Below are positions 2,724 to 57,288 of a stretch of 64,000 nt of DNA, piece after piece. Made by a program: the position numbers and the translations under genes. The stretch spans positions 10,948-74,947 of IMG/VR virus record IMGVR_UViG_3300007512_002775. One strand, given 5' to 3'. Below the pieces are notes generated by a model. It was not told the DNA's origin, ran no database searches, and saw only the letters and a program-made list of their open reading frames with translations. The stretch is from a virus. Each line of letters begins with the position of its first letter. Position 1 is the first letter of the stretch.

Positions 2724-3365
2724 TTACCTGAGCAGGTTTTCCATCCACCCTGTCACCATCGGGCCGCTAGTGCCTTCAGAAAAACTCACGACGACCATTT
2801 CTTCATCTAGCAACCACGCAATGGGCAAGGTGACTCCACCGTTGTTTATGGATCTGGGCAAAGTGGCCGCGGGATCTGACAGCACTCTGAAAGGGATGCT
2901 ACCATACGTTTGAAGCATGTAATCTTCAAACGCGGCGAGGGTTGCTCTTCCCGCAGGCTGACGCGCAGAATCTTCGAACAGAGTATAGTATACTACGCCA
3001 CCTCGATCCTTCCAGTCTTCAGCTATCATGGCCAAATAGTCAAACTCTACAATGCATGCGCCACACCACTCAGTAGCTGACACTACAAGGATCGCTTTGC
3101 TGCCGCAGTGACTCTTGATGTTGACGCCTTCCCAATCGGCGTTCGGATAGCGAGTCGATGGAAAAGTATCCCCGATAGAAAAACCGACAGGATTATCCAG
3201 GTTGGGACAAGCTACTGTAACCGGAGTCGATGCGGAGTCTTCTTGCTGGCTGGCGTCAACAGCTGCTTCGTTATTCGACGTGCTTACAGAGCCTCTTCTT
3301 TCTACTCCACACGCTACAAAGGCGGCTGCCAATACAATGCAGCCAAATTTTACGATAGTTTTCAT
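2724..3365 (-). CDS. Thioredoxin-fold (TlpA/redoxin-like) lipoprotein
   Basis: Lipobox-like AAAFVAC, WCGAC active site, later LP motif. Confidence 0.75.
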   Translation of the reverse strand: MKTIVKFGCIVLAAAFVACGVERRGSVSTSNNEAAVDASQQEDSASTPVTVACPNLDNPVGFSIGDTFPSTRYPNADWEGVNIKSHCGSKAILVVSATEWCGACIVEFDYLAMIAEDWKDRGGVVYYTLFEDSARQPAGRATLAAFEDYMLQTYGSIPFRVLSDPAATLPRSINNGGVTLPIAWLLDEEMVVVSFSEGTSGPMVTGWMENLLR

Positions 3366-4282
3366 CTCTTTTTTACCTCTATGTTAAACTCTTCTTTGGA
3401 GGCCCCCCGAAAGACATCTGACACAATCAATCCTCGGCTGCCGATATCGGGGTGGGTCCAATTCTTTCTGTCAAAAACGTAGTAACTGATATCGGGCTCG
3501 ATACTATCAGGCAACGTCTTCATGAATGTTTTAGCGCGGCGGTGGGGCGTATCCCACTTCCTGACCAGTACGTGCAGGTGGGCAGACGAATTCTGGAGGC
3601 AGCCCTTCCACGCCCTATCCAGCCAGTGATCGTAGGTTGCATCGAGCCAAACGACGTGTTGGGGCTTAAGGCGACAAAGGCTTCCTTCTCGGGCTGCAGA
3701 GCTCAGGGCACTGCCTCCAGCTGAGTAGCCGGCAAATACTAACTTCAAGTCCCACGGTACACTACCATGGCGCATGAGGCCCCACACGTCCAAATGTTCC
3801 ACCACGTCCGCCATGAACACTGCGAGAGAATTCTTCTCTCGCCACACTTTGCCCTGTCGCCCGCGGGGCGTCTTAGTATTGGTCGACCACGGCATCTCGG
3901 GAATCACCATTGCCACCGGTCGTTCTTCAGTCGATATTCGTTTGAGCATCGGAATGAGACGATTGCGAAAAGTCCTTTCGGAAAAACCGCGAAGTCCATG
4001 GAGCCATATGACTAAAGTCAATTGAGCAGGATGGGCGTGTTCGGGAACGACTAGTATTGTATCACGACGGCCGTTTTTATGCAATCGATCTCGTCCACCG
4101 TTGGTTGGTGAAACAAAGATCCACGAAGTCGAAGGGAATTCCGAATCCTTGATAGCTCGCTGCCATCGTTCAACAGTTTGGGGATAAACGCCCAAACCAG
4201 TGTATACGCTCTTTAGTGGAGGCCCCGCAGCAATCAACAGCGAAGCTGCTAGCAAAACAGCTATTCGCCTAAGGCCGGTCAT
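3362..4282 (-). CDS. Secreted alpha/beta-hydrolase-fold protein
   Basis: Signal peptide, WLHG, GYSAGG nucleophile elbow, LDA, C-terminal His. Confidence 0.7.
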   Translation of the reverse strand: MTGLRRIAVLLAASLLIAAGPPLKSVYTGLGVYPQTVERWQRAIKDSEFPSTSWIFVSPTNGGRDRLHKNGRRDTILVVPEHAHPAQLTLVIWLHGLRGFSERTFRNRLIPMLKRISTEERPVAMVIPEMPWSTNTKTPRGRQGKVWREKNSLAVFMADVVEHLDVWGLMRHGSVPWDLKLVFAGYSAGGSALSSAAREGSLCRLKPQHVVWLDATYDHWLDRAWKGCLQNSSAHLHVLVRKWDTPHRRAKTFMKTLPDSIEPDISYYVFDRKNWTHPDIGSRGLIVSDVFRGASKEEFNIEVKKR

Positions 4283-4676
4283 CCTTCATGCCTTTGCCGT
4301 ACCACCTGGCATTTCGACCGCGGACATCATAATGAGTAAACGTCTTGTATAAGCCCACTCCGCCTTTCTTCATCGCGCCCTCTGCAATCAACGCTTCGAT
4401 GGCCGCCTTAACCTCCGTCGGCGTCAACCCGGCCACTTTGATATCGGCCGCCTTAGCGAGCATGTGTTGGCTCCTTCTAGCGCCACCTATCTTGCGATTA
4501 TAAGCCGGAGATCTATAACCACTGATAACCCGAATCGGTTTCCCTAGCTGTTCTCGCAGGATCTGTAAATTATCGGCTAACGATTGGGCATTATCTAGGA
4601 GCTCGGAGGGCACATCAGACCCATCTCTGCAGCTAAACTCGCTCAAATTAAAATTTTTAGTGAGCTGGCCAGGCAT
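4269..4676 (-). CDS. Peptidase M15A (D-Ala-D-Ala carboxypeptidase-like), probable endolysin
   Basis: LTKNFNLSEF, ISGYRSPAYN, SQHMLAKAADI, FTHYDVRG; start moved to MPGQ to avoid overlap. Confidence 0.85.
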   Translation of the reverse strand: MPGQLTKNFNLSEFSCRDGSDVPSELLDNAQSLADNLQILREQLGKPIRVISGYRSPAYNRKIGGARRSQHMLAKAADIKVAGLTPTEVKAAIEALIAEGAMKKGGVGLYKTFTHYDVRGRNARWYGKGMKDDRP

Positions 4677-4680
4677 TCCC

Positions 4681-5004
4681 TCAGCTCTCTCCGGAGGAAC
4701 CGCCTGAACTACCGGTAGCTGACTCGGTTTCAGAATCTCCATCGCTGGGGGTTGTTTCGGAGTCTTCCGGGGGCGCACCAGCCACGCGATCGCCCTCTGG
4801 ACTATGTTGAATAGTAACATGAACCATCGCATCAGGATCACTCCATTTAGTAGTTTGCCAATTCGTTATGACTATTACTTGTAAGTCTTGAACAGCTTCG
4901 CGCAGTTCTTCATTCTTAAATAAAAACTCAGCTATCGCAAGACGAACCTGTTCTTCTGTTAGCCGCGCCGTAGCTACGACTTGGGGTTGCTGCTCTTCAC
5001 TCAT
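4681..5004 (-). CDS. Hypothetical acidic protein
   Basis: Fits packing; GGTGAG RBS. Confidence 0.6.
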   Translation of the reverse strand: MSEEQQPQVVATARLTEEQVRLAIAEFLFKNEELREAVQDLQVIVITNWQTTKWSDPDAMVHVTIQHSPEGDRVAGAPPEDSETTPSDGDSETESATGSSGGSSGES

Positions 5005-5008
5005 CTTC

Positions 5009-5191
5009 TCACCTAATTGATACGTGCGATTTAAGAACATCGTCTAAACTTTTTACGATCGAAGATAGAGTCCATGCGGCATCCTGAGCTCTCATTTGAG
5101 CCATAGGGTTGCCCTTGCCTTCTATTTTTTCGAACTCTTCTCTGGCGAATTCTCTTAATTGCACTAACATTTTTACTTCTTTATCACTCAT
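5009..5191 (-). CDS. Hypothetical protein
   Basis: GGGAG RBS; fits packing. Confidence 0.6.
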   Translation of the reverse strand: MSDKEVKMLVQLREFAREEFEKIEGKGNPMAQMRAQDAAWTLSSIVKSLDDVLKSHVSIR

Positions 5192-5239
5192 TTTTTCTCC
5201 CTGTTTCTAATGTAATGATATTACTATCAACATAAACCT

Positions 5240-6493
5240 TTATTTGAACTGATCAGCTTCGGTTGATTCTTCCATGGCCAAAGTAGATGCCTGCGCACCA
5301 GAAATGCACTGAGCGACGAGGTCAAAATAACCAGTCCCTACTTCTCTCTGATGCTTGACAGCCGTATAGTCCGATTCATCGGCAAGCTGAAATTCATCTT
5401 GCTGCAATTCAGCGTACGCTGACATGTCTCGCGCTTCATAATCCAAAGCTAATTCGAACATGCCAAAATTGAGAGCGTGAAAACCGGCCAATGTAATGAA
5501 TTGAAACTTGTATCCCATTGCACTCAGTTCACGCTGAAACTCAGCGATGGTAGCATCATCTAAATTCTTCTTCCAATTGAAGCTGGGAGAACAATTGTAT
5601 GCTAAAAGCTTTCCTGGAAACTCTCCGTGGATGGCTTCGGCAAATCTTTTAGCTTCGGCCAAGTCTGGTTTAGAAGTCTCGCACCAGAGTAAATCTGCAT
5701 AATTCGCGTAACGTAAACCTCGCGCGATAGCCATGTCTAGGCCACCAGTAATGTGATAAAAGCCTTCCGGCGTGCGCTCTTTACTGGTAATAAAGGGCAG
5801 ATCTTCGTCATCAATGTCTGTTGTCAACAACCTAGCACTATTCGCATCAGTGCGCGCAATCAAAACAGTGTCGGTGTCCATTACATCAGATGCTAATCTT
5901 GCAGCAATCAATTTTCTGATAAATTCTGAGCCTGGCACGAGCACCTTTCCGCCCAAGTGACCACACTTTTTGGCAGAACTCAATTGATCTTCAAAATGTA
6001 CACCGGCAGCGCCGGCACGTATCATAGACTTCATCAACTCAAACGCGTTCAACGGTCCTCCAAACCCGGCTTCGGCGTCTGCTACGATAGGTGCAAACCA
6101 GTCCCTAATAGTCCGGCAATCATTTTCGGCCCATTCAACCTGATCTGAGCGCTGCAGCGCATTGTTAATTTTTTGTACCAACATTGGGACGCTGTGCACG
6201 GCATAAAGACTTTGATCCGGATACATGGCGTGAGAATCATTGGCATCGGCGGCCACTTGCCATCCAGAGCAATATATGGCGGGTACCCCAGCTTTTACCA
6301 TTTGCATCGCTTGATTCCCTGTGACTGCTCCCATAGCATGAGTATAATCTTCAGTCAACAAAAGGCTCCACAGACGATCTGCTGCTGCTTGAGCAAAGGG
6401 AGCTTCTTCAGGCTGCGACCCTTGAAGCGCGTGTACTGCGTCAACGGAATAGGGGCGATCTATTGGAGGGACGGCTAAAGGGAGGCGGCTCAT
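5240..6493 (-). CDS. aceA: Isocitrate lyase
   Basis: SGWQVA, YPDQS, DAEAGFG, KKCGH catalytic motif, [25 protein letters not shown]. Confidence 0.97.
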
Positions 6494-8064
6494 TGAATTA
6501 TAATCCTTTCGTAGGCCGGGAGGGTTAAAAACTCAGGGAGCACTTCGGCCGTACAAAGCTCCATGAATAACTCAACTGCTTCTTGCAGTCGTGGAGAATC
6601 GTGCTTCTTTAGCACGAGCCCTAATTCCTGCTGTAATCTTCCCGGAGTAATGTCGTCGCCTTCTGCATCTTGCATCCCGTAACGTATCCATTGCCAAACT
6701 TGAGTACGAGAAATTTCAGCAGTCGCGGCGTCCTCCATAAGGTTGTTTAAGGGAACACAGCCTTGGCCTGCTAACCATGCTGCAAGGTACAATACACCTA
6801 CTTCAACATTTTGCCTCAGGCCGGCTGCAGTAATGAGACCAATTGGAGGCCGCGTGAGTGAGACAGTCAGTCGCACTTCCTCAATATTACTCCATCCGTT
6901 CCTGAGTGACATTTGGTTGGCCCCCAACATGTGCTTACTAAAAATTTCTTCTGCCACTGGTACCAACGCTGGGTGAGCGACCCATGTGCCATCGTGGCCG
7001 CGCAAAACTTCGTGCAGTTTATCAAGACGCACTTTATTCATCGCAGCTGCATGACCGGCGATGTCCCCTTTGATCGGTATTTGCGCAGCCATCCCTCCCA
7101 TCGCATGACACCCTCTGCGGTGGCATGTATCTACCAATAGCTTCGCGTACGCTTCCATAAACGGGGTGTCCATTCCAATGAGTGCACGGTCAGGAGTGAC
7201 ACGATCGGATGTGTCGGCAAAACATTTAATGTAACTAAAAATATAATCCCAACGGCCGCAATTTAAGCCAGCAGAATGATCTCGTAGGGCCCATAAAATC
7301 TCGTGCATTTGGAAGGCCGCCGGAAGGGTCTCGATCAGGACCGTGGCTCGAATGGTACCAGTAGGCCATTCGAATGCTTGTTCTGTCCAAGCAAAGATCT
7401 TCGCCCACCAAGCGGCTTCTTCCCACCGTTCTAATTTAGGTAAATAAAAAAACGGCTTCTTAGAACCAGCAGTAAAAACTTCAGCGTTGTGCCATGCATA
7501 CAGCCCAAAATCAAACAAGGCAGCCGGAACCGTTTTACCATATAAAGAAAAATGAGCTTCTCGTAAATGAAGCCCCCTCGGCCGCACGAACAAGACGGCC
7601 GGATCATCTTGTAGCCTGTATGTTCCTTTAGTGGGATGCTCATAAGTGATGTGGCCTCGTAAAGCATCTTTAAGGTTTAAATGCCCTTCTAATAACGCCT
7701 CCCAAGTAGGAGATAAGCTGTCTTCGAAATCTGCCATATAGACTTTTGCGCCCGAATTAAGGGCATTAATAATCATTTTTCTGTCGGGCGGTCCAGTGAT
7801 CTCTACTCGACGATCTAGAAGCTCCGAGGGCGGGGGAGCCACTCGCCAATGCCCTTTGCGAATTTCTAGGGAGTCTGGAAGGTAGCCAACGTTGCAACGG
7901 GGATCGGCTTGGCGATCTCTTCTTGCCGCCAAAAGATCATCTAGTTCGGGGCCAAAGCGTTGTACGAGGCTAGCCAAGAAACCTACAGCATCTTCAGCCA
8001 ACACCGAACTAGCTAATTCGTGATCCACGTAACTCACGCCATTTAGTCTTTTAGTTTGAGGCAC
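6490..8064 (-). CDS. aceB: Malate synthase A
   Basis: [62 protein letters not shown]; overlaps aceA start. Confidence 0.97.
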
Positions 8065-8908
8065 TATTTTTCTCCAGCACAGGGATGATTTCTTCTTCTA
8101 ATATTCTAATCGTCTCTTCGGGCCCAGAAGTCGAAAATGAACCTCCACTCGAAGCCAGAGCTGACCATAGACTGTGATCATTGCCTCCGGGATCACACTT
8201 ATCCCCTATAAACCAAATAGGGCGCGCAGAGAAGTGCTTCAAGGCATGCGTTTTATCCCACCCCTTTGGATATATGTCGATCGATGTGACTCCCCCCAGT
8301 GCAAACTCTACATCCGCGAGGCCTAAATCATCTAAAGCTCCCCTCAAACTCTCGCAAAGCCTCGCGCGAATATTTTTCTTTTCGTCTAATCTAGCAAAAG
8401 CCTCCCGATCAACAGAAGTTGCGTCACGACCTATGGGAGACCAATTCAACGTTGCTGTTCTATATGAAACAAAATTCCCTGTCACGTGATTAAATCCTTG
8501 GTTGTCGTCAATAAATTGCAACTGTAATTCCAAAATACGCCTAATCAAAACTGTGTATACACTCTCATCATTGTAAGAAGCAAGGTAATCTCTAAAATCC
8601 AGGCCGTACTCTTGAATAAACTGCCGATGTTCAGTAGACCAAACAAAGAGCTGCGTTCCATTACAAGGCATTATCGTAAAAGATGCAGCCGGAAGAGAAG
8701 CAATTGAATTCCAAGCCAATGCTGCTTGACTCTCTATATACGAAAAAGGACTCCCGCTCACGATTCCAATATCGGCCAGCCTTGAAAGTTTTCGAAGAAC
8801 AGGAACCATGGACCACTCCAACGACTCTCTAGGTGGAGTAATTGTGCCATCAAGATCAAAGAGAATCAATGGTTTGTTTTTACTCACGGCTTCCTGCAGT
8901 TTCGACAC
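8051..8908 (-). CDS. Phosphomannomutase, eukaryote-type (HAD IIB, PMM2/SEC53-like)
   Basis: FDLDGT-TPPR, NWSPIGR, GGVTSIDIYPKGWDKT, FIGDK...GGND. Confidence 0.85.
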   Translation of the reverse strand: MSKLQEAVSKNKPLILFDLDGTITPPRESLEWSMVPVLRKLSRLADIGIVSGSPFSYIESQAALAWNSIASLPAASFTIMPCNGTQLFVWSTEHRQFIQEYGLDFRDYLASYNDESVYTVLIRRILELQLQFIDDNQGFNHVTGNFVSYRTATLNWSPIGRDATSVDREAFARLDEKKNIRARLCESLRGALDDLGLADVEFALGGVTSIDIYPKGWDKTHALKHFSARPIWFIGDKCDPGGNDHSLWSALASSGGSFSTSGPEETIRILEEEIIPVLEKNSASN

Positions 8909-8969
8909 ACCAATACCTACGATTGTAACAATGGCCGCAATTGAGTTAACACTGGATTTTTAGCGGCGT

Positions 8970-9491
8970 TTAGTGCCTCAGCCGTCTTTTTAATTTGGCG
9001 TGTATAAGCACAGTAGAAGCGGGCTGAGCCGGAACCTTGAAAAGATCCATGCTGGTTTCATGAAGTAAATCAGACCCTTTTCTTTGGTTGCATCGAGTAC
9101 AGGCTAATACTACATTTTTCCAAATATGTTTGCCACCTCTAGAGCGAGGCCGCACATGATCTACGGTAGATTCCGGAAGAGAAAGTTTCTCTTGACAATA
9201 TTGACATTGACCACAGTCGCGAAGATAGAGATTCATCTTCGTTAATCGCGCTGGCCCGCAGGCGGTCTTTATGCGTGCCGCAATTACCCCGCTGGTGAAC
9301 CTGACTTTAGACGGAAACGGATGAGGCCCTGACGGGGTACCTATTGTCATCTCTTTATAGGTTTCAACAACTTCTGCTCGGCCGCCACACACGGCAGAGA
9401 GAGCTCTCTTCCACGTGGTCTGGAACAAGGGTTCATATCCAGAACTTAACATTAGTACAGGCGCAGAGATTGCGCATGAGACATCATGCAT
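8970..9491 (-). CDS. HNH endonuclease
   Basis: LYLRDxxxCQYC...TVDHVRPRSRGG...WKNVVLACxxCNxxK. Confidence 0.92.
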   Translation of the reverse strand: MHDVSCAISAPVLMLSSGYEPLFQTTWKRALSAVCGGRAEVVETYKEMTIGTPSGPHPFPSKVRFTSGVIAARIKTACGPARLTKMNLYLRDCGQCQYCQEKLSLPESTVDHVRPRSRGGKHIWKNVVLACTRCNQRKGSDLLHETSMDLFKVPAQPASTVLIHAKLKRRLRH

Positions 9492-9528
9492 AGATTACCT
9501 CAACTAACTCTATTTTTAACTATTCTGC

Positions 9529-9894
9529 TTATACCGCCTTACGCAAATATTGGATTACCAGTTTAGCGCGCCATCGACTTTGTGTTGTCGTGATGGGCCG
9601 ATTACCAAAAGCCCTGCAGGAAGAACCCAGCAGGCCGCATAGATTTTTGAGCGCGGTAGCATGCTTACTATACGAAATAGATCCTTTGTCCCCGGAGAAA
9701 AGTGCTGCCTCATGAATGGCTCTTTTTAAGAGCTTACGAAATTTTCGCGTGGTTTTCCTGCGCTCTTTAGGAGATAATCCTTGCAACGATCGAAAAACGT
9801 ACCCGGGCCCAGAACCGCAAAAAGGCACTACCTCTTCGTCTAGACACGCTAAATTGATTATAATTTCATCCATAGACGGCATTGATGACCTCAT
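9529..9894 (-). CDS. Hypothetical protein
   Basis: Directly downstream of class A promoter. Confidence 0.55.
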   Translation of the reverse strand: MRSSMPSMDEIIINLACLDEEVVPFCGSGPGYVFRSLQGLSPKERRKTTRKFRKLLKRAIHEAALFSGDKGSISYSKHATALKNLCGLLGSSCRAFGNRPITTTQSRWRAKLVIQYLRKAV

Positions 9895-9905
9895 CTATCA
9901 TGATC

Positions 9906-9933
9906 ATTATAATTTTGAGTCTCAGATTTTACA
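9906..9933 (-). promoter_or_regulatory. Class A promoter (TGTAAA-N16-TATAAT)
   Basis: Exact motif. Confidence 0.7.
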
Positions 9934-10087
9934 AATCGTCATCTGGTTCGACATCATATAGCTCCTCTTCAAACATTTCCTTAGCGGATTCAATCACCGC
10001 AATTATTTCTGAATCTCCGGCTTCATCTACCAAAAGCTCGATCAGATGATCAAAAGCTCTTAAAACACTCAGGGAATCTCTTACCAT
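9929..10087 (-). CDS. Small acidic hypothetical protein (52 aa, below ORF-track cutoff)
   Basis: MVRDSLSVLRAFDHLIELL...EELYDVEPDDDL; GGAGG RBS; ATAATTA motif upstream. Confidence 0.65.
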   Translation of the reverse strand: MVRDSLSVLRAFDHLIELLVDEAGDSEIIAVIESAKEMFEEELYDVEPDDDL

Positions 10088-10201
10088 AGGGTTACCTCCG
10101 AAGTAATTATCACTACTTTCCTAATTTGTAAATTATGCTGTTAGTAATAATTGTGGCTCAATTATTTTTACTCAATAATTAAACATTAGAGGTTTACCCT
10201 A

Positions 10202-10444
10202 ATGAAGATCACCGAAAACCAACTCAGGATTATCGTCCGGAGCGCTCTAACCGAATTATTTGTTCGACCGAAGCATAGAAAATCGTTCTTACAACGAGCG
10301 CTAGGTGCTAAATACCAAGGCCCGGAATACAGTGGCGACCCGAGCGATCCGGGTTTTGGAGAATTCGAAGAAGAAAGCATGGACGAAGTAGACGAGCTCG
10401 ATGAAATCAACACGCAACATTCTGGCAGGCCTGAGACGTTTTAA
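10202..10444 (+). CDS. Small protein with MKITENQLRIIVR tag
   Basis: N-terminal tag shared with many ORFs here; ATAATTA at 10175-10181; GAGG RBS. Confidence 0.7.
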   Translation: MKITENQLRIIVRSALTELFVRPKHRKSFLQRALGAKYQGPEYSGDPSDPGFGEFEEESMDEVDELDEINTQHSGRPETF

Positions 10445-10883
10445 TCAGAGTGTTTATCGTTATGCACGCAACGCTGTGCGTGCTGTCGATGTAACTCCTT
10501 TTTTGGGATTTCTATTCATCGCTAACATTATAGACGCCGCCCTTTCGCTGCAGTGGATAAAAATGAACGTAGCCGAGGAAGCCAATCCACTCATGGCGTA
10601 CCTCATCGACCTAGACCCTAGGCTCTTCTTAATCGTCAAAATCTCTCTAATTACTTTATCGTGCATCATCCTATGGAGATTCAGCAATCATACTGGAGCG
10701 AAGATTTTCGCTCTACTTGCTGCAATTCTATATGCCGCCATTCTGGGCATCCACCTGGTCGGAGCTTTTGATGCCGGCATCTTGCTCGTACCTTCCCAAG
10801 CAGAGCTGGAGGAGAGGGCGTTGAGCCTATGGAACACCGTGTCGGAGTGGCTATCGCTGCACATTGTTAAATACCAAAATTAG
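10401..10883 (+). CDS. Membrane protein (DUF5658-like)
   Basis: NIIDAALS...EEANPLMA...KI pattern with three to four hydrophobic segments. Confidence 0.7.
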   Translation: MKSTRNILAGLRRFNQSVYRYARNAVRAVDVTPFLGFLFIANIIDAALSLQWIKMNVAEEANPLMAYLIDLDPRLFLIVKISLITLSCIILWRFSNHTGAKIFALLAAILYAAILGIHLVGAFDAGILLVPSQAELEERALSLWNTVSEWLSLHIVKYQN

Positions 10884-11083
10884 CCATCAACATGATGCAG
10901 TTCATGCATTTTACAAGTAAGTTGTCGGCCGTCATCCAGTTTTAATACACAGAGTAATTCTTTCGAAGCAGTACCTCCGACTAGCCATTGGGGGTTATCT
11001 GCTGTTATTATCTCTACAATTATCCCTTTGATAGTTGCATCCAAAAAGGCTTGCACCTCATCTCCTACTCGCATGGCTCTCAT
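10880..11083 (-). CDS. Small hypothetical protein
   Basis: MRVGDEV SH3/KOW-like start. Confidence 0.6.
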   Translation of the reverse strand: MRAMRVGDEVQAFLDATIKGIIVEIITADNPQWLVGGTASKELLCVLKLDDGRQLTCKMHELHHVDG

Positions 11084-11418
11084 TACACTTCTCCTTTGGT
11101 CTTATTACTCCATTTAAGCTTTTTAATGTGTTCCTCCAAGTACTCTTGTAGCACCGCATCGTTGTCTTTTGCCCAAGACTCCATTTCACTTGATTTCAAC
11201 TCATCGAGCATCGACCACAAAGATTCATTTTCATCTTTGAGTTCTTTGATTAAGCTCAAGCAGTAGTTCAGAGATGTATCCACCCACACATCAGGTGAAG
11301 AGCCAGCTGGCCTGAGGCGGGTGTCGAGCCAGTCGCGGATGTCTCCTAGCCTCTCTTCATCTGACTTTCCCTCATCCGCAGGAGAGGGAGTTGTTGCCTT
11401 CAATTCATTAAACTTCAT
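11083..11418 (-). CDS. Hypothetical protein
   Basis: Coupled overlaps at both ends; coiled-coil segment. Confidence 0.6.
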   Translation of the reverse strand: MKFNELKATTPSPADEGKSDEERLGDIRDWLDTRLRPAGSSPDVWVDTSLNYCLSLIKELKDENESLWSMLDELKSSEMESWAKDNDAVLQEYLEEHIKKLKWSNKTKGEV

Positions 11419-12541: not shown

Positions 12542-12871
12542 TTAAAATGCCACTGATTCACCACAGCCACACATGCCAGTCGCAGTTGGCGTATTGAACT
12601 TGAACCCTGTGGACATCAGCGTCTCCTCCCAATCGATCTCTGTACCGATCAAGAAGAGATAAGACTTTTTATCGCACGCGAGAGAAAGGCCGTCGTACTC
12701 AAAGAGGCGATGAGTTTTTTCTGGCGGAGGCTCTATGAACTCTATCTCATACATGAACCCAGAACATCCACCGGCGTTCAGCTTGATGTTGAGGACGTAG
12801 TCGTCCGGTTTGTTCAGTTTCTTCTTGAGTTCTATGGCTCGAGCGAGAGCATCATGAGTTATCGTTACCAT
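12542..12871 (-). CDS. iscA: IscA/HesB Fe-S carrier protein
   Basis: GGCSG and CGCGESxxF motifs; start at MVTITH. Confidence 0.92.
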   Translation of the reverse strand: MVTITHDALARAIELKKKLNKPDDYVLNIKLNAGGCSGFMYEIEFIEPPPEKTHRLFEYDGLSLACDKKSYLFLIGTEIDWEETLMSTGFKFNTPTATGMCGCGESVAF

Positions 12872-13341
12872 GCTGATTCTTTGATCATCTCTCTTACAGT
12901 GCGCCTCAGGAGAGATTCGTTCATCCAGGCATCGCGTTTTTGATGCATGGCATATAACTCGTCGTCCCATGGGCCTTCTCCGCCGTACTTGATACAGTTG
13001 ACTATTGCTTCTTCAGCAGTAAACTCTTTGTAGACTTCAGGCTGGTACATGTCGTAATAGAATTCTTTATCGATTCCACCTGGCTTAGTCGCACTTGTTT
13101 GGTAGTCAAAGACCAGGTCCCCCATCTCAACCCAGCCATGGACAATGGGCTTCGGTGGGCTCTTCCATTTATCTGTTACAGTGCCGTGGACGACCTTGAA
13201 CTTGTCCTTGTTGTTGAGGTCTCTATGTTTTTGTGGGGCTCTACCTGGCGTACCTTTTATGAAATGATTCTCAAACCATTCATCAGCTTTTTGATACGCG
13301 AAAGGAAAACACAAGCCAGTCGGTTGAATATTTTTTGGCAC
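12865..13341 (-). CDS. Hypothetical protein, possible Cys-His-Asp (papain/transglutaminase-like) fold, C-terminal LRRxVRE tag
   Basis: GLCF...HGWVE...VFD; ends ESLLRRTVREMIKES. Confidence 0.55.
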   Translation of the reverse strand: MPKNIQPTGLCFPFAYQKADEWFENHFIKGTPGRAPQKHRDLNNKDKFKVVHGTVTDKWKSPPKPIVHGWVEMGDLVFDYQTSATKPGGIDKEFYYDMYQPEVYKEFTAEEAIVNCIKYGGEGPWDDELYAMHQKRDAWMNESLLRRTVREMIKESAW

Positions 13342-14545: not shown

Positions 14546-15592
14546 CTAAAACTTCAACAATGCATGTGGAGAGCTCTCAGTTTGCGATGCATGCGTCTGT
14601 TCAATAAAGCGCGACCTAGCCCTTAGTTCCATTAAGTTGTATGCCCCTGTGTAAGAAAGGCCACTGCGAACCCCCCACTCTAAATCATGCAATACGTCAG
14701 CAACGGGCCCTTTGATCGTTACAGTAGTTGAAACGCCCTCTATAGAACCTATCTTGCCGCGCCACGCCTTTTGTGCTTCATGAGATGCCATCCCTCTATA
14801 GATCTTACGAGGAGCACCGTCATTAGTTCGTAAAATCATTCCGGGAGTCTCATCGGTTCCTGCGAGCAATGAACCACACATGATTACATCAGCTCCGGCC
14901 GCCAAGGCTTTGACCATATCTCCCGAGTTTTTGATGCCTCCGTCTGCAATGAGAATGGCGTCACGATCTGATGTTGCACAGTCCAATACACTCTGCAGCG
15001 TAGGAATCCCGTGGCCCGTCTGTACTCGAGTAGAGCAGATCGAACCACCGCCGACTCCCACTCTAATACTATCCGCTCCCCAATCAGACAAGTCGTTAAA
15101 GGCTTCTAACGTGGCTACATTTCCTGCCATCAAATGAACTGATTTGCCAAAAATATCACGCAACGTCTTTAGTGCCTTTTTCATCAATGCATGATGCCCG
15201 TGAGCAACGTCTAAGCAAAATATTCTACACCCAGCATCATACAGAGCAGTCGCTCGATCTTCGAAATCGCCTGTAATTCCCACGGCTGCTCCAAACACAG
15301 CCCCCGATTGAGCGGTTACAACCTCTTTGACCATAGAAGCCTGTTCTTCAACAGTATTGTAACGATGGAGAATCCCCAAAGCACCTGCCTTATGCATAGC
15401 GATGGCCATCTCTGTGCCTGTCACTGTATCCATGGGTGCCGAAATAATTGGAAGCCTCAAACGATCCTTTCTCCATCTGGTCAATTCAGTGGACAAATCG
15501 ATCTGAACTCGAGTTTCAATATTGCTGTACCGCGGCTCTAACAAGACGTCATCAAAACAAATCGCGCGTCGCACGTCTCCTCCTTTAAGCAT
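14546..15592 (-). CDS. IMP dehydrogenase / GMP reductase family (no CBS domains)
   Basis: FDDVLL, SAPMDTVT, DVAHGH, GNVAT, GGGSICSTR, IADGGI, YRGMAS, RSGLSY. Confidence 0.93.
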   Translation of the reverse strand: MLKGGDVRRAICFDDVLLEPRYSNIETRVQIDLSTELTRWRKDRLRLPIISAPMDTVTGTEMAIAMHKAGALGILHRYNTVEEQASMVKEVVTAQSGAVFGAAVGITGDFEDRATALYDAGCRIFCLDVAHGHHALMKKALKTLRDIFGKSVHLMAGNVATLEAFNDLSDWGADSIRVGVGGGSICSTRVQTGHGIPTLQSVLDCATSDRDAILIADGGIKNSGDMVKALAAGADVIMCGSLLAGTDETPGMILRTNDGAPRKIYRGMASHEAQKAWRGKIGSIEGVSTTVTIKGPVADVLHDLEWGVRSGLSYTGAYNLMELRARSRFIEQTHASQTESSPHALLKF

Positions 15593-15642
15593 ACACTCAA
15601 CCAAAAATAAAAACTACTAGACTGCTGTATATAGAAGCAGGT

Positions 15643-17214: not shown

Positions 17215-19434
17215 CTATCTGCAAACATCCGAAAAAATATCATCTAAATAAGCTCTTATTTCAGCAGCGGTAATTGCAGGATGAAGATCGTAACATCTTG
17301 CCGCAATATCGGCAGGAGAACACCACTGCACGTGATATCGTCTAGGAACGATCGCAAATACTTCCAACTTATCATCAGCTTCACAATTACCGATGGTACA
17401 TGGATCCAAAGCTGCATTGACATCGGCTGGAGTGTAGTTGTGAAACGTCTGGGCCGATTCATCACTCAACACTACCGCCATGGGCCACGCATCACCTCTA
17501 AAAGCGAGATTTAAATTATTTCTGCCTACATCCACTACAGCATCATATTGAGGCTCTTCATTGTTGAGATTGCAACTGAGGCCAGCTAAGGCATTAGCAA
17601 ATGTCAAAGAATCCACCAAGTTTATCTCTACATCAGGAGGGGACCTCCACGGATTAGAAGGGCTTGGAGTCCTCCCTGGAACATTCACTAGTGCAAATCT
17701 ATGTGGTGTATTAGCAAATTCCAGTACATAAGGTTGAATGCCTTCACGCAGTGCTCTAATCTTATTGCACATAGAACCAGAGCGATCGATGGCAAACACC
17801 ATGTCCACCTTCTCGTGGCTATCCAGATCCTCGTCAATATCTCCGTCGCAGTCATTGTCGATCCCGTCACAGACCTCCTCTTCAGGCAAAGTCTGGCCTG
17901 CACAGAGAGCATCTATAAAAATACCATTAGACTCATTTCCCCACCGGCCCATCTGACACGTGAGCTGGCCTGGTTCGCATATGCCGATATTCACAGTCCC
18001 AGGGGGCCCAGTATAGCATTCAGCAAAAAGGCCTTCGTCAGTGGTTTGATCGCAGTCATCATCCCACGCGTTACAGACTTCTGGGCTCGGCGTGCCCAAA
18101 GTGGGGTCGCACTCCTCTTGCACTTGAGGTTCGTAAGCACATAACGCTTGGCACTCCGTAAAAGCGGTCTCAGTGCAATCTGGGTTGGTGCATACACACT
18201 CCATGAATCCAGCCCCACACACCAAACGCGGATTGCTCTGGCACGGAAGCAGCATTCCCAAGAATTCAGGAGGACACATGCACTGCAACTCTTCATCGAC
18301 AAGCCCGTCGCAGTCGTTGTCCATGCCGTCACAGATTTCAGCTTGTGGCTGCGGAGCGTTGCAATTCACCCAATTGCCAGCATTGCACGTTTCGATCCCA
18401 GAACCACAGATGGTCTGGCACGGTTGGAACAGTTCTTCGTCGGTGGCACCGTCACAATCGTTGTCTACTGCGTCGCACTCCTCGGTTTGAGGATATAGTG
18501 CATCTTCACACAGCAGGTCGGCTCCGGAACACATCAACATGCCATAATCGCATATGCCGGCATCAGTGAGTCCGCATTGATCTCCTTCGTATTCCGGGTG
18601 GTCATCAACGGTCCCGTCGCAGTCGTTGTCCAGACCGTCACAGACCTCTGTCGCTGGCAGTACTTCATGCATGCACCCAGACCACGCACCATTCTCACAT
18701 AATTCGATACCCGTCTTGCATGGGGTATATGAATTCAGCGGACTAGCAAACACTAGCCAATCTTGGGGAGTACCATCCGGGTCAGAGGGCCCAGACCAAC
18801 ACATTCTCTTGAGGCCTTCGTCTGTGTGAGCATCACAATTATTGTCCTTACCATCGCACACTTCTGTATGAGGGCCAACGGCACCAAGACATCCTCCTGG
18901 CAACCACACGTCGTCTTCTGTTCCTCCGATGGTATCGTAGCCGTCATCGAAGATACCCCACTGTGAGCCGCCAGTCGGAAGTGGGTGACAGATTTGTTTT
19001 CCGTACTTGCACTCTCCGTATAAGCGACCGACTTGAGTACTGTGCTCTTCTATTGTTCCCAATTCTCGGCCTTCTTCGTCTAACCAGCAACTCCTCTCTG
19101 GTATCGCCCAGTCAATGGAATACTCCTTATCAGCCGGCCAGCACTCGCATCCTTCGTCCACTCCCGTGTCACCAAAACCACAATTGACCAAATCGCCGTT
19201 AGAATCCTGCTCCTCTAATGGTAATGCAAGACAATTGCAGTTATTATCTAAGCCGTCGCAAAGCTCCAGGATGGATTCATCAAATTCTGCGTGTGGGTTG
19301 TCTAATTTACAGGAAGTATCGGGTGGAAAATCAGATGTTGAAGACCCGAACCAATTGACCAGTTCGTCCGTGCAGCTCATACAGACAATCGCTATTATCA
19401 CGGATAATATGATTGCTGAACGCTTTTTGTGCAT
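17215..19434 (-). CDS. Cys-rich lipoprotein with seven ExCDGxDNxC repeats and C-terminal VWA domain
   Basis: Lipobox-like VCMSC; repeats of the myxobacterial 'putative metal-binding motif'; MIDAS DRSGS. Confidence 0.85.
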   Translation of the reverse strand: MHKKRSAIILSVIIAIVCMSCTDELVNWFGSSTSDFPPDTSCKLDNPHAEFDESILELCDGLDNNCNCLALPLEEQDSNGDLVNCGFGDTGVDEGCECWPADKEYSIDWAIPERSCWLDEEGRELGTIEEHSTQVGRLYGECKYGKQICHPLPTGGSQWGIFDDGYDTIGGTEDDVWLPGGCLGAVGPHTEVCDGKDNNCDAHTDEGLKRMCWSGPSDPDGTPQDWLVFASPLNSYTPCKTGIELCENGAWSGCMHEVLPATEVCDGLDNDCDGTVDDHPEYEGDQCGLTDAGICDYGMLMCSGADLLCEDALYPQTEECDAVDNDCDGATDEELFQPCQTICGSGIETCNAGNWVNCNAPQPQAEICDGMDNDCDGLVDEELQCMCPPEFLGMLLPCQSNPRLVCGAGFMECVCTNPDCTETAFTECQALCAYEPQVQEECDPTLGTPSPEVCNAWDDDCDQTTDEGLFAECYTGPPGTVNIGICEPGQLTCQMGRWGNESNGIFIDALCAGQTLPEEEVCDGIDNDCDGDIDEDLDSHEKVDMVFAIDRSGSMCNKIRALREGIQPYVLEFANTPHRFALVNVPGRTPSPSNPWRSPPDVEINLVDSLTFANALAGLSCNLNNEEPQYDAVVDVGRNNLNLAFRGDAWPMAVVLSDESAQTFHNYTPADVNAALDPCTIGNCEADDKLEVFAIVPRRYHVQWCSPADIAARCYDLHPAITAAEIRAYLDDIFSDVCR

Positions 19435-44393: not shown

Positions 44394-44950
44394 TAGTCAC
44401 CGTCATACAGATCATTTACAAATGGTGTCTCCGACCAAGCTCTCGGTTCATACATATCAGCTCCACCAACCTCGATCTCTGCAAGATTGTCGATTTTCCT
44501 CACTGTATAGTACGCATTATCACCAGTTTTTACACATACTGCGGGACAAACTTCAATCTTAGTGGCCCAAGGGAGCATCTCCTTTACTTCGTGGAAAACG
44601 TTTCCTGATGCCGAAATCTGGATTGAGGAAGCAACGATCGTCTTGCCCTGCTTAAACAAGTCGATGAGGGCCGTCGCGCAGTCGTCTATCATGAATGCTT
44701 CATCGATGCCGATCACATCATAACCGATACTGTGCGCCACGATGTCCTCTCCGTTGTTAACGTTGATCGCCGGAAACCTGAGGCCAGCATGAGTACAGAT
44801 CTCGCCTTCCTCATAACGATCATCCATCTTCGGCTTGAAGGCCACAACCCGCTTGTTTTGATAAGAACAGCGCTCGAGAACCGAAAGCATCCTCGTCGTC
44901 TTAGAACCAAACATCGGGCCCGTGAACACTATGAATTCTGGATTTTTCAC
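44393..44950 (-). CDS. tdk: Thymidine kinase (type II)
   Basis: GPMFGSKTT, DDRY, IDEA, VGGxxxYEP. Confidence 0.92.
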   Translation of the reverse strand: MKNPEFIVFTGPMFGSKTTRMLSVLERCSYQNKRVVAFKPKMDDRYEEGEICTHAGLRFPAINVNNGEDIVAHSIGYDVIGIDEAFMIDDCATALIDLFKQGKTIVASSIQISASGNVFHEVKEMLPWATKIEVCPAVCVKTGDNAYYTVRKIDNLAEIEVGGADMYEPRAWSETPFVNDLYDGD

Positions 44951-44980
44951 TCGGTGGCAGCCTCCGTTAATATAATAACG

Positions 44981-45009
44981 ATTATATCCAATTATTCAGA
45001 CAATTTACA
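44981..45009 (-). promoter_or_regulatory. Class A promoter (TGTAAA-N17-TATAAT)
   Basis: Exact motif upstream of tdk. Confidence 0.7.
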
Positions 45010-45036
45010 TCAATTATTGTATTCTGTCCTCATGAT

Positions 45037-55187: not shown

Positions 55188-55994
55188 TTACAATCTACTG
55201 TTGACAGAAATTATTTCGATCGGAGTCGCTATATACTCGTTCCACAGACTGGTCTCTACCTTGGCATCACAAGAATCCAACTCATAACACAAGTTGTCAA
55301 TCCCACGCCCAGGATAACCCAATCGATACATATTGCAGGCGCGTCGACCATTATCGAGTGCCATGGATTTTATATCGCTCCTGAATCCTGCGCGGACGTT
55401 ACCGATGAATTGAACTAATACAACAGACTCACTGCGGAAAAACGGCCGTTCCATCACTGTGAAGCTAGATATGTCATATTCTATCCCGGCAGCTATGGAA
55501 TCGATTAACCGTCGAGCACCGGACTCAGTCGTGTAATGATTTAATTGCTTGGGATTATAAACAGTGCCGTAAACCTGTTGAGTAAACTCTTCGTCGAGCA
55601 TCACATAAGGCTCCATATCGCCGCGAGAATAAAAATAAGCAAATTTTAGCTTAGTGATATCCGGAAAGTAACTGCCGTATTCTTTCTCAAACGTCCAAAA
55701 CCTGTGATTGACAAAATCTTCAACAAAATCCAAAACATTCTTCTCAGTCAATAAATCCCACCGCTGCACCTCATTGTGGAGTTGATAACCAAAGTATTCC
55801 GTAACCAGCTCAAGAAAATTATCAAAATCTTGAATGTTACATATTTGGGGGTGTTTACAACTCATCTGCCCACCGCGCGAGTCTAACCCTTGGCCTTGGA
55901 AGTTCAAGAGGTGATCGACCACGTGCTCCCATTCACTTAGCGTATGAAACGATGATGCTGGCTTCATGTATCCACGAACTTTTACGCTTGGCAC
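55188..55994 (-). CDS. Hypothetical protein
   Basis: Long ORF in operon; HYT motif. Confidence 0.65.
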   Translation of the reverse strand: MPSVKVRGYMKPASSFHTLSEWEHVVDHLLNFQGQGLDSRGGQMSCKHPQICNIQDFDNFLELVTEYFGYQLHNEVQRWDLLTEKNVLDFVEDFVNHRFWTFEKEYGSYFPDITKLKFAYFYSRGDMEPYVMLDEEFTQQVYGTVYNPKQLNHYTTESGARRLIDSIAAGIEYDISSFTVMERPFFRSESVVLVQFIGNVRAGFRSDIKSMALDNGRRACNMYRLGYPGRGIDNLCYELDSCDAKVETSLWNEYIATPIEIISVNSRL

Positions 55995-56689
55995 TTCGTA
56001 CTCCTATATGCTTCGACCGCGATGGGCCAAAGTTCCTCGGCAATAAGTAGACACCCTTCCGCAACTTTCTGGATTTCCCATTGGGCCCCAGGATGCATCC
56101 TCAAGTCAATGAACTTGAGAAGATTACTCAGATTTACTGTGCCGTAATATTCAGTATAGAGGTTCTGGGGGAGAACTCCTCTGGCTTGTTCTCTGCATAC
56201 GCCTGCAGTGAGAAGATCTTCATAGAGTTTGAGCGATTTTTTATGGTGCCTTTTAATGATGGTAGAAGCATATCCCAATCGTTTCTTGATAAAAGGCAAG
56301 AATTTCCCTTCAGTGGATGCTTGTCGATTAGATTTGCTCTGTGCGCGCAATCTCTCAGGCTCGTAAAACCGAATGTCAATATCAGTATATCGTCTGGAGA
56401 TTTCATTATAAGACCAAGTTCTATGCCGATGATGTTGGCTACGTACAAACAACGGTACTACAAATCTGAGTGTTACTACGTTGTGTTCAAAGGTGGACGT
56501 ATGCTTGTGCCTCACCAGATAGTCAATTAGTTTTTTGTCGCGATCATCCAGAGCACTTTTATGCTTACCGAAGGAGACACGGGCAGCATTGACGATCGTC
56601 AGATCGTCTCCCATGTGGTCCACATATTCTACGGATCCGATGCCATCATCATAGAGCGAGACTCGTTTAACGTGCCCCTCCTCACTCAT
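55982..56689 (-). CDS. thyX: Flavin-dependent thymidylate synthase
   Basis: AARVS, HxSxFEH, RHRxxSYNEISRRY, EQARxVLP, AQWEI. Confidence 0.96.
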   Translation of the reverse strand: MSEEGHVKRVSLYDDGIGSVEYVDHMGDDLTIVNAARVSFGKHKSALDDRDKKLIDYLVRHKHTSTFEHNVVTLRFVVPLFVRSQHHRHRTWSYNEISRRYTDIDIRFYEPERLRAQSKSNRQASTEGKFLPFIKKRLGYASTIIKRHHKKSLKLYEDLLTAGVCREQARGVLPQNLYTEYYGTVNLSNLLKFIDLRMHPGAQWEIQKVAEGCLLIAEELWPIAVEAYRSTKCQA

Positions 56690-57288
56690 TTCATTTTGAT
56701 CTTTACGTCGATATCAACACAGAGTGTGGGAAGCTTCAAGTGGTTCGCTAAATCGTGCTCCTTGGCCTCTTTGGCATCTAAAAACCAATCAGCGTGGCCA
56801 CGCTCGTGAACTAAATTGAGAAAGTACTTGGGGGTATGACCACAGTTTTTTGCCATCATCTTATAGACTAATTGGTTAAGCCTTTCCGTCTCTTCGGCCG
56901 ACGCTTTTATCTCTTCCACCTTTCCAATCTCCATGGAAGATACATCGTGAATCATTAGCGTGGCATGCGCGTCCATGTAACGATGGCCATCAGTGCCAAA
57001 TGAAAAAAGAATGGCACCACAAGACATCGCTTTACCTTCCACGATGGTTGCAATTGGTAACTCTGCATTCTTAATGGCAGCTATCATGGCCATCAACGAA
57101 TAGACTTGGCCACCATAAGAGTCGATAACAATCGGAATAATATCTTGGCCAGTATTATGTGCCTGAGCTACTTCGTTGGCGAATTTTTTTGCTGCATCTT
57201 CTGTGAACTTGTTTACGCGAATAATGACGGGCGGCTTTCGCAACTCCACTTCTTTCAAGAGTGGAGAAATCGTAATCTTATGTTTCAT
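56686..57288 (-). CDS. ClpP-family protease
   Basis: IDSYGG, AMSCG (Ser), MIHD (His), DWF...EA. Confidence 0.88.
   Translation of the reverse strand: MKHKITISPLLKEVELRKPPVIIRVNKFTEDAAKKFANEVAQAHNTGQDIIPIVIDSYGGQVYSLMAMIAAIKNAELPIATIVEGKAMSCGAILFSFGTDGHRYMDAHATLMIHDVSSMEIGKVEEIKASAEETERLNQLVYKMMAKNCGHTPKYFLNLVHERGHADWFLDAKEAKEHDLANHLKLPTLCVDIDVKIKMK

What the first reader, a model, noticed from the sequence alone, without database searches (positions are those of the whole stretch)
5240..8064. Complete glyoxylate shunt (aceB-aceA) encoded by a phage
Seen: full-length malate synthase A and isocitrate lyase with intact catalytic motifs and overlapping stop/start. They sit between phage-type genes (M15 peptidase side, HNH side) and overlap an upstream PMM. 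Known: the two enzymes are sufficient to bypass the CO2-releasing TCA steps and allow net synthesis from acetyl-CoA. Inference: infection redirects host lipid or acetate carbon into sugar and nucleotide precursors. A whole two-enzyme pathway is unusual as an auxiliary metabolic module.
Basis: partly seen in the sequence, partly recalled or inferred. Interest (0 to 1): 0.8.

Follow-up and report, generated by a model that had tools for sequence, protein, structure and literature searches.

The report
Glyoxylate-shunt operon in marine huge phage
A fragment of a very large uncultured ocean phage really does carry intact genes for both glyoxylate-shunt enzymes, but this gene pair has already been reported in marine and huge phages, so it is a well-supported further example, not a discovery.

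Summary
Window 6490-8064(-) is a full-length malate synthase A and 5240-6493(-) a full-length isocitrate lyase. Both score above NCBIfam equivalog cut-offs, keep every catalytic residue, and are joined by an ATGA stop/start overlap.

The 75-kb record is viral, not a chimera:
- 58 of its 118 ORFs have homologues on a 267-kb IMG/VR contig, mostly collinear. That contig and three other aceBA-bearing relatives encode a T4-type Gp23 capsid protein and a large terminase.
- Per-run contigs from three further marine samples (two studies) bridge the gene junctions on both sides.
- GC and GC3 match the rest of the contig.

Viral malate synthases form one supported clade. Non-synonymous divergence is low while synonymous sites are saturated. 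IMG/VR holds 63 malate-synthase loci, 57 with isocitrate lyase beside it.

The claim that this is unusual does not hold. aceAB was reported in ocean viromes (2013), as an aceBA operon in a complete 179-kb marine viral genome (2017), and in 20-22 huge phages (2025 preprint). This scan has also noted it on other DNA.

Possibly new details: the pair moves with a small ORF, an M15 peptidase and a secreted esterase-like hydrolase between two genome positions, and it is repeatedly linked to phosphomannomutase. The physiological role is untested.

The parts
6490..8064 (-). aceB, malate synthase A (524 aa)
   Evidence: Pfam MS_N, MS_TIM-barrel and MS_C. TIGR01344 equivalog 661.5 bits, cut-off 594.5. 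About 48% identity to enterobacterial malate synthase A by tblastn; E 8.5e-153 to E. coli MSA structure 3cuz. R163, E245, D273 and D445 are invariant in 21 viral homologues.
5240..6493 (-). aceA, isocitrate lyase (417 aa); its ATG overlaps the aceB stop (ATGA)
   Evidence: Pfam ICL. NF011645 691.6 bits (cut-off 562) and TIGR01346. E 1e-177 to PDB 6lrp. KKCGH at residues 175-179 and seven other active-site motifs are kept in 22-23 of 23 viral homologues.
8051..8908 (-). Phosphomannomutase-type HAD-IIB enzyme directly upstream of aceB; probably the first gene of the transcription unit
   Evidence: Pfam PMM 112 bits. TIGR01484 HAD-IIB. DLDGT motif in the sequence. PMM homologues lie beside aceBA in L180/L005, L182, L184, L185, L196 and L197.
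8922..8949 (-). Sigma-70-like promoter match (TTAACT-16-TACAAT with TG) between the HNH stop and the PMM start
   Evidence: Consensus scan only. 18 sites were found in the region against 11.9 expected, so this is weak.
8970..9491 (-). HNH endonuclease upstream of the unit
   Evidence: Pfam HNH and HNH_5. Homologues lie beside aceBA in L005 and L119.
5009..5191 (-). Conserved 60-aa ORF that travels with aceBA
   Evidence: 78% identity in L005 and 42% in L006/L016, at the same position after ICL. No family match.
4269..4841 (-). M15 (MepK/VanY-like) peptidoglycan peptidase; part of the co-moving block, likely a lysis enzyme
   Evidence: Pfam Peptidase_M15_3. 58-71% identity at the same position in L005, L006, L008 and L016.
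3362..4282 (-). Secreted alpha/beta-hydrolase (esterase/cutinase-like) that travels with aceBA
   Evidence: N-terminal hydrophobic leader and G-Y-S-A-G-G. S187, D214 and H277 are invariant in 4 homologues. AF2 model pLDDT 77, pTM 0.80. Foldseek hits to esterases, cutinases and lipases, E 6e-8, TM 0.4-0.5. Found beside ICL in L005, L006/L016 and G001.
2724..3365 (-). AhpC/TSA-type peroxiredoxin at the downstream edge
   Evidence: Pfam AhpC-TSA and Redoxin. No homologue beside aceBA in other loci.
55982..57288 (-). Two abutting genes (junction 56686-56689) that flank the aceBA block in most relatives; the site is empty in this phage
   Evidence: In L016, L013 and G001 the homologues of window 56686-57288 and 55982-56689 lie on either side of MS-ICL, with or without orf60-M15-orf306.

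Best explanation
This is a genuine aceB-aceA operon carried by an uncultured marine huge phage. The phage has a T4-type capsid and a DnaE-type polymerase; CheckV completeness implies a genome of roughly 270-400 kb. Both enzymes look catalytically competent. Expressed during infection, isocitrate lyase would split host isocitrate into succinate and glyoxylate. Malate synthase A would condense glyoxylate with acetyl-CoA to malate. The infected cell would then bypass the two CO2-releasing TCA steps and keep C2 carbon as C4 acids for gluconeogenesis and biosynthesis. The upstream phosphomannomutase and the nucleotide-sugar enzymes of relatives suggest that part of this carbon ends in mannose-type sugar nucleotides. 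Shown: gene identity, viral location, conservation and selection. Inferred: expression, flux direction and the benefit to the phage.
For: Identity: equivalog-level scores and all catalytic residues present. Viral location: 58 of 118 ORFs have homologues on 267-kb G001, with window 12.8-57.3 kb collinear to G001 207-263 kb. G001-G004 all carry aceBA plus a Gp23 capsid protein and TerL. Contigs from X3, X4 and X5 (three other samples, two studies) bridge 3441-5822, 5854-8573, 8563-11107 and 5541-6593. aceBA GC is 0.48-0.49 and GC3 0.44-0.45, inside the contig's range. Retention: viral MS form one clade of 21 rows (SH-aLRT 95), and window ICL sits in a 14-row viral clade (99). pN is 0.07-0.12 for ICL and 0.14-0.32 for MS against pS 0.70-0.95, similar to DnaB, UvsX and RNR. 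No stop or frameshift appears in about 20 homologues. Sugar link: PMM lies beside aceBA in at least 6 loci, and GDP-mannose-dehydratase-family genes occur in G001-G004. Precedent: PMC5332604, PMC4053976 and 10.1101/2025.02.27.640493.
Against: The 75-kb record itself has no recognisable capsid, portal or terminase gene, so its viral identity rests on synteny with relatives. There are no expression data. The host is unknown, so it is not known whether the host lacks or already has the shunt. No AceK or other means of throttling isocitrate dehydrogenase was found. No beta-oxidation genes and no ManC-type nucleotidyltransferase were found, so both the source of acetyl-CoA and the step after PMM would have to be supplied by the host. 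ICL-only phages are more common than aceBA phages, so a complete phage-encoded shunt may not be the selected trait.
Confidence: 0.72

Rival explanations
1. The enzymes work as predicted, but the selected benefit is redox and iron economy, not carbon gain. Diverting isocitrate past two NADH-producing steps would lower demand on the iron-rich respiratory complex I and reduce oxidative stress. That would keep iron-limited ocean hosts productive during a long infection.
For: Marine heterotrophs induce ICL and MS under iron limitation (PMC11069385). An AhpC-type peroxiredoxin lies at 2724-3365 and an A-type Fe-S carrier at 12542-12970 in the window. In G004 the Fe-S carrier lies about 0.7 kb upstream of MS. 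GenBank phage C48C1 has ICL within a few kb of a NifU-like gene and a peroxiredoxin.
Against: These links are loose. The peroxiredoxin is not beside aceBA in other loci, and the Fe-S carrier is 55 kb from aceBA in G001. The more recurrent neighbour is PMM. No iron-uptake or regulatory element was seen.
Confidence: 0.2
2. The operon is a lysogenic-conversion or host-fitness module that promotes growth of a carrier cell during a provirus or pseudolysogenic phase. This was proposed for the TARA genome.
For: Proposal in PMC5332604. Nucleotide-sugar genes in relatives fit a surface-modification idea.
Against: No tyrosine integrase was found in any of five records totalling about 840 kb. The lineage has T4-type structural genes and a full replication set, which is typical of lytic phages. 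The records are incomplete, so absence is not proof.
Confidence: 0.05
3. The aceBA segment is cellular DNA joined to phage DNA by misassembly, or the whole record is a cellular or plasmid fragment.
For: The record has no capsid or terminase gene of its own. One homologous contig is binned in an Ectothiorhodospiraceae MAG (L119).
Against: Both flanks are homologous to a capsid-bearing phage contig. The same 17.6-kb arrangement recurs in an independent IMG/VR contig, L005. Junctions are bridged in other samples. Composition matches the contig. More than 20 independent viral contigs link aceBA to RNR, DnaB and UvsX. L119 itself has 16 tiny same-strand ORFs plus HNH, a phage-like layout resembling the TARA genome.
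Confidence: 0.02

Closest known systems
aceBA operon of the complete marine environmental viral genome TARA_ERS478052_N000008 (179 kb; Nishimura et al. 2017, PMC5332604)
   Same: Malate synthase A is directly upstream of isocitrate lyase on one strand. It is a marine phage with T4-like structural genes and an unknown host. Nucleotide-sugar or LPS genes lie in the genome and an HNH/McrA-type gene lies nearby.
   Different: There the genes are 15 nt apart (ICL 411 aa, MS 502 aa) and are preceded by a long run of tiny ORFs. Here they overlap (ATGA) and are preceded by PMM and HNH, on a phage estimated at 270 kb or more with DnaE, GroEL and RNR. The TARA layout resembles L119, not this window. I could not fetch the TARA sequence to place it in the trees.
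ICL and MS genes of huge phages (Huge Phage Genome Collection preprint, bioRxiv 10.1101/2025.02.27.640493)
   Same: The preprint reports 98 ICL and 22 MS genes in phages of 200 kb or more, adjacent in 20 genomes. MS-bearing phages come from marine, soil and plant habitats, and the genes are read as glyoxylate-cycle auxiliary genes.
   Different: The preprint gives counts and structures only. Lineage, monophyly, selection, block mobility and the PMM link are not described in the text I read. Whether this record or its relatives are in that collection was not checked.
Bacterial aceBAK operon (E. coli type)
   Same: Same gene order aceB then aceA, the same enzyme subfamilies (MS type A, short bacterial ICL) and the same catalytic residues. 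51 of 80 sampled cellular loci carry an ICL match within about 4 kb of MS, most directly downstream on the same strand.
   Different: No aceK and no IclR-type regulator. The phage genes overlap, whereas cellular pairs have spacers of roughly 50-250 nt. Identity to any cellular homologue is at most about 56% for MS and 70% for ICL.
ICL-only phages, e.g. GenBank Phage C48C1 (OQ984149, Kyanoviridae, 156 kb circular)
   Same: An intact ICL homologue (54% identity) lies among phage genes, near an endolysin, a peroxiredoxin and an Fe-S assembly gene.
   Different: No malate synthase in that genome. Its ICL belongs to a different clade and is annotated as a hypothetical protein.

Membership tests
Isocitrate lyase AceA (EC 4.1.3.1; NCBIfam NF011645 / TIGR01346) | Whole-protein score above the curated equivalog cut-off | tested here: met
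   NF011645 691.6 bits against 562; TIGR01346 522.5 against 275.9. Methylisocitrate lyase models score far below their cut-offs.
Isocitrate lyase AceA (EC 4.1.3.1; NCBIfam NF011645 / TIGR01346) | Catalytic loop KKCGH with the active-site Cys, plus Mg2+ and substrate-binding motifs | tested here: met
   KKCGH at 175-179. [29 protein letters not shown] and TLAG are present and kept in 22-23 of 23 viral homologues. The roles assigned to these motifs come from my knowledge of the M. tuberculosis and E. coli ICL structures.
Isocitrate lyase AceA (EC 4.1.3.1; NCBIfam NF011645 / TIGR01346) | Cleaves isocitrate to succinate and glyoxylate | not testable with these tools
   Needs an enzyme assay or complementation.
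Malate synthase A AceB (EC 2.3.3.9; TIGR01344) | Whole-protein score above the equivalog cut-off, with the three-domain architecture | tested here: met
   TIGR01344 661.5 bits against 594.5, model positions 1-510 of 511. Pfam MS_N, MS_TIM-barrel and MS_C.
Malate synthase A AceB (EC 2.3.3.9; TIGR01344) | Catalytic Asp and Arg, and the two Mg2+ ligands (E. coli MSA D447, R166, E250, D278) | tested here: met
   D445, R163, E245 and D273 align to these residues in 3cuz and are invariant in 21 viral and 13 mixed sequences. The residue roles come from my knowledge of the E. coli MSA structure paper.
Malate synthase A AceB (EC 2.3.3.9; TIGR01344) | Condenses glyoxylate and acetyl-CoA to malate | not testable with these tools
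   Needs an assay.
Bacterial aceBAK operon | aceB directly upstream of aceA on one strand | tested here: met
Bacterial aceBAK operon | aceK (isocitrate dehydrogenase kinase/phosphatase) in the unit | tested here: not met
   No PF06315 match in G000-G004; the E. coli control rings. So this is aceBA, not aceBAK.
Phage auxiliary metabolic gene | Flanked on both sides by viral genes on one contiguous molecule | tested here: met
   Flanks are homologous to G001 and L005. Junctions are bridged in other samples.
Phage auxiliary metabolic gene | Virion hallmark genes on the same contig | tested here: inconclusive
   None is recognisable on the 75-kb record. The Gp23 capsid protein and TerL are present on four syntenic aceBA-bearing relatives.
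Phage auxiliary metabolic gene | Expressed during infection and alters host metabolism | not testable with these tools
   No RNA holder was listed and no host is known.

The most novel reading that the evidence does not exclude
In this lineage aceBA is the core of a mobile five-gene block: MS, ICL, a 60-aa ORF, an M15 peptidase and a secreted esterase/cutinase-like hydrolase. The block has moved between two genome positions and is repeatedly joined to phosphomannomutase. It would work as one programme: the exported hydrolase frees acyl or acetyl groups from envelope lipids or esterified polymers, the shunt turns the resulting acetyl-CoA into C4 acids and hexose, and PMM channels that into mannose nucleotides for glycan synthesis during infection.
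Probability: 0.1. Interest if true: 0.6.

Novelty: new member of a known kind. Interest (0 to 1): 0.3.

Why it matters
Phage-encoded central-carbon enzymes change how much carbon infected ocean bacteria respire and how much they retain, so they bear on marine carbon budgets. This record adds a clean, well-linked example. It shows that the pair is an old, selected trait of one clade of very large marine phages. The principle itself is already in the literature. What is still missing everywhere is biochemical and physiological proof and a host. The intact genes here, and the more complete relatives G001 and G002, would be suitable material for that test.

Tried and rejected
- Expression: no RNA holder was listed by the look-up of sequencing runs, and only contigs, not raw reads, could be laid.
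- Donor search: cellular MS relatives reach at most about 56% identity and are spread over Acidobacteriota, Myxococcota, Elusimicrobiota, Pseudomonadota, Bacteroidota and others. The viral clade sits outside all 79 sampled cellular rows, and the ICL backbone is unresolved. No donor can be named.
- Host: no tRNA in the window. The nearest GenBank phage DnaE is under 30% identical. The MAG label of L119 is most likely a binning error.
- dN/dS: synonymous sites are saturated in most pairs, so only pN/pS and three finite ratios (0.05-0.13) are usable.
- Searched for and not found in G000-G004: thiolase, acyl-CoA dehydrogenase, ManC-type nucleotidyltransferase, tyrosine integrase and AceK. These records are fragments.
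- GenBank phages: the only MS matches are mislabelled enterobacterial sequences.
- Window 4681-5040 (orf119) overlaps the M15 ORF and has no homologue elsewhere. I treated it as doubtful.
- The promoter and terminator scan was near background.
- The orf306 fold match is generic alpha/beta-hydrolase (TM 0.4-0.5), so no substrate can be assigned.
Full report
**1. What is at the coordinates**

All genes of the region lie on the minus strand. Window 6490-8064 encodes a 524-aa protein with the three Pfam malate-synthase domains. Window 5240-6493 encodes a 417-aa protein of the Pfam ICL family.

Both exceed NCBI's equivalog cut-offs:
- Malate synthase A, TIGR01344: 661.5 bits against a cut-off of 594.5.
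- Isocitrate lyase, NF011645: 691.6 bits against 562.
- Methylisocitrate lyase models fall far short of their cut-offs.

Against solved structures, the ICL matches bacterial ICLs at E 1e-177 over residues 11-416. It keeps the KKCGH loop and the other active-site motifs. The MS matches E. coli malate synthase A (3cuz) at E 8.5e-153; tblastn identity to enterobacterial malate synthase A is about 48%. It keeps the residues that align to R166, E250, D278 and D447.

The aceB stop and the aceA start overlap as ATGA. Upstream lies a HAD-IIB/PMM-type phosphomannomutase (8051-8908). It overlaps aceB by 14 nt if GTG 8064 is the aceB start. Upstream of that lies an HNH endonuclease (8970-9491). Downstream of aceA lie a 60-aa ORF, an M15 peptidase, a 306-aa ORF and an AhpC-type peroxiredoxin.

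**2. Is it viral, and is the linkage real?**

The window is bases 10948-74947 of a 74,947-bp IMG/VR record, classed as linear and 28% complete. The record encodes:
- a DnaE-type polymerase, ribonucleotide reductase, DnaB helicase, a UvsX/RecA-type recombinase and a thymidylate-synthase homologue;
- GroEL, a CCA-adding enzyme, a DNA methyltransferase and several HNH genes;
- many ORFs without any family.

Nearly all of these lie on one strand. No capsid, portal or terminase gene is recognisable on it. Four lines of evidence nevertheless tie it to a phage.

(a) Homology to a capsid-bearing phage contig. 58 of its 118 ORFs have tblastn homologues on a 267-kb IMG/VR contig (G001). Window 12.8-57.3 kb is collinear with G001 207-263 kb. 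G001 and three other large aceBA-bearing contigs (202, 178 and 118 kb) each encode a T4-type Gp23 major capsid protein and a large terminase.

(b) An independent contig with the same layout. The 21.5-kb IMG/VR contig L005 reproduces the whole window arrangement from about -1 kb to 13.3 kb, including HNH-PMM-aceB-aceA-orf60-M15-orf306.

(c) Junctions bridged in other samples. The stretch occurs in marine and seawater metagenome runs of two studies. Per-run contigs from samples other than the likely source bridge M15/orf60 into aceA (3441-5822 and 3453-5751). They also bridge aceA through aceB into PMM (5854-8573), PMM into HNH and beyond (8563-11107), and the aceB/aceA junction in the second study (5541-6593).

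(d) Matching composition. aceBA has GC 0.48-0.49 and GC3 0.44-0.45, inside the range of the contig's other genes.

Misassembly or cellular origin is therefore very unlikely. From the CheckV figures, the lineage's genomes would be roughly 270-400 kb. That estimate is inference.

**3. How widespread and how old**

A search of IMG/VR with the ICL found 80 or more loci. About 20 of these have malate synthase directly upstream and UvsX, DnaB and RNR nearby. A profile search with MS found 63 loci, 57 with an ICL beside it. About ten of these are giant-virus MAGs carrying a distant, eukaryote-like ICL.

In a maximum-likelihood tree of 100 MS sequences, all 20 viral rows and one MAG contig form a single clade (SH-aLRT 95). 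The remaining 79 cellular rows from many phyla lie outside it. This was a quick search without bootstraps.

The one "cellular" member (L119, binned as Ectothiorhodospiraceae) has sixteen tiny same-strand ORFs, then aceBA, then an HNH gene. That is a phage layout resembling the published TARA genome, so L119 is most likely a binning error.

In the ICL tree the window falls in a 14-row viral clade (support 99). A second aceBA clade and several ICL-only viral clades branch from an unresolved backbone.

Within the viral clade, synonymous sites are saturated (pS 0.70-0.95). Non-synonymous divergence stays low: pN is 0.07-0.12 for ICL and 0.14-0.32 for MS, comparable with DnaB, UvsX and RNR of the same genomes. 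Every catalytic residue checked is invariant or nearly so. The pair is thus an old, selected trait of this phage group. No donor can be named.

**4. Anatomy details that may be new**

In most relatives (L016/L006, L013, G001) aceBA lies between the homologues of window 56686-57288 and 55982-56689, next to RNR. It sits there either alone or together with orf60, M15 and orf306. In the window those two genes abut directly. The whole block instead lies about 50 kb away, behind HNH and PMM, as it does in L005. The genes have therefore moved as a block.

orf306 has a hydrophobic leader and a GYSAGG nucleophile elbow. It has invariant Ser, Asp and His candidates. Its predicted fold is an alpha/beta-hydrolase that matches esterases, cutinases and lipases only generically. 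Together with the M15 peptidase it may simply be a lysis pair.

PMM homologues lie beside aceBA in at least six loci, upstream in some and downstream in others. Relatives carry GDP-mannose-dehydratase-family genes.

**5. Mechanism**

The established chemistry of the two families gives the bypass: isocitrate goes to succinate plus glyoxylate, and glyoxylate plus acetyl-CoA goes to malate.

I consider it most likely (about 0.7) that the phage expresses both enzymes, so that infected cells retain C2 carbon as C4 acids for biosynthesis. Part of that carbon may go to sugar nucleotides, given the PMM link.

A redox and iron-sparing benefit is a serious rival. Marine heterotrophs induce the shunt under iron limitation (PMC11069385). 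Peroxiredoxin and Fe-S carrier genes lie nearby, although those links are loose.

The lysogenic-fitness idea of Nishimura et al. finds no support: no integrase was found in five records.

Several functions would have to come from the host. The lineage has no aceK, no beta-oxidation genes and no ManC-type enzyme in the records searched.

**6. Comparison with what is known**

- aceA and aceB were reported in Pacific viromes in 2013 (PMC4053976).
- An aceBA operon was described in 2017 in a complete 179-kb marine viral genome with T4-like structural genes (PMC5332604).
- A 2025 preprint counts 98 ICL and 22 MS genes in huge phages, adjacent in 20 genomes.
- Earlier notes of this scan describe the same pair on another marine huge phage (e1-5407935), and ICL with lipid-catabolic genes on a T4-like phage (e1-6036340). 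I tested the latter lead here and found no beta-oxidation genes.
- In GenBank phage records, no genuine phage malate synthase was found, and one ICL (phage C48C1) is annotated as hypothetical.

**7. Verdict**

The claim of rarity is not. This is a new member of a known kind, with modest added detail: monophyly and selection, block mobility, the PMM link, and a lineage with no deposited relative (DnaE under 30% identical to any GenBank phage). Function and host remain untested.

Noticed in passing
window 55982-57288 versus 2724-8908; L016, L013, L005, G001: The aceBA block (MS-ICL, with or without orf60-M15-orf306) occupies two different genome positions in related phages. It lies next to RNR in most, and behind HNH-PMM in this window and L005. 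An HNH endonuclease sits beside the block in several loci.
   Followed up: partly
window 3362-4282: A phage family of secreted alpha/beta-hydrolases (GxSxG, with invariant Ser, Asp and His) has no Pfam, PHROG or NCBIfam match. It travels with ICL and an M15 peptidase and may be a LysB-like lysis esterase.
   Followed up: partly
L119 (CAYMMQ010000074.1, 11 kb, binned as Ectothiorhodospiraceae MAG): This contig has a phage layout (16 tiny same-strand ORFs, aceBA, HNH), and its MS nests inside the viral clade. It is probably a phage contig binned into a bacterial MAG.
   Followed up: partly
L003 (GenBank OQ984149, Phage C48C1, record 44175-45416): A complete circular Kyanoviridae genome carries an intact ICL homologue annotated as a hypothetical protein. 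Endolysin, NifU-like and peroxiredoxin genes lie nearby. The genome has no malate synthase.
   Followed up: partly
L223-L242 (IMG/VR GVMAG contigs): Giant-virus MAG contigs carry malate synthase (35-43% identity), mostly with a distant eukaryote-type ICL about 300 nt downstream. This looks like a separate occurrence of the pair in viruses of eukaryotes.
   Followed up: no
window 12542-12970, 14546-15604, 1230-1604, 22839-24467: Other host-like genes sit on the fragment: an A-type Fe-S carrier (SufA/IscA-like), a GMP reductase/IMPDH-family enzyme, a dCMP-deaminase-like gene and a full-length GroEL.
   Followed up: no
window 49748-53359; G001-G004: The lineage combines a T4-type Gp23 capsid protein (open frames of about 650 aa) with a DnaE (Pol III alpha) replicase in place of a T4-type family-B polymerase. 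The DnaE is under 30% identical to any GenBank phage.
   Followed up: partly
L078 versus L017: In one closely related genome pair, aceBA is more diverged at synonymous sites (dS about 2 or saturated) than the flanking DnaB and UvsX (dS 0.6-0.8). This hints at exchange of the aceBA segment between phages.
   Followed up: no
window 17215-19434: A 739-aa protein has three MopE-type Cys/Asp-rich metal-binding repeats (Pfam PF11617). A homologue is present in G001.
   Followed up: no
window 4681-5040: A 119-aa ORF overlaps the annotated start of the M15 peptidase gene by 160 nt in another frame. It has no homologue in related loci, so either it is spurious or the M15 start is misplaced.
   Followed up: no
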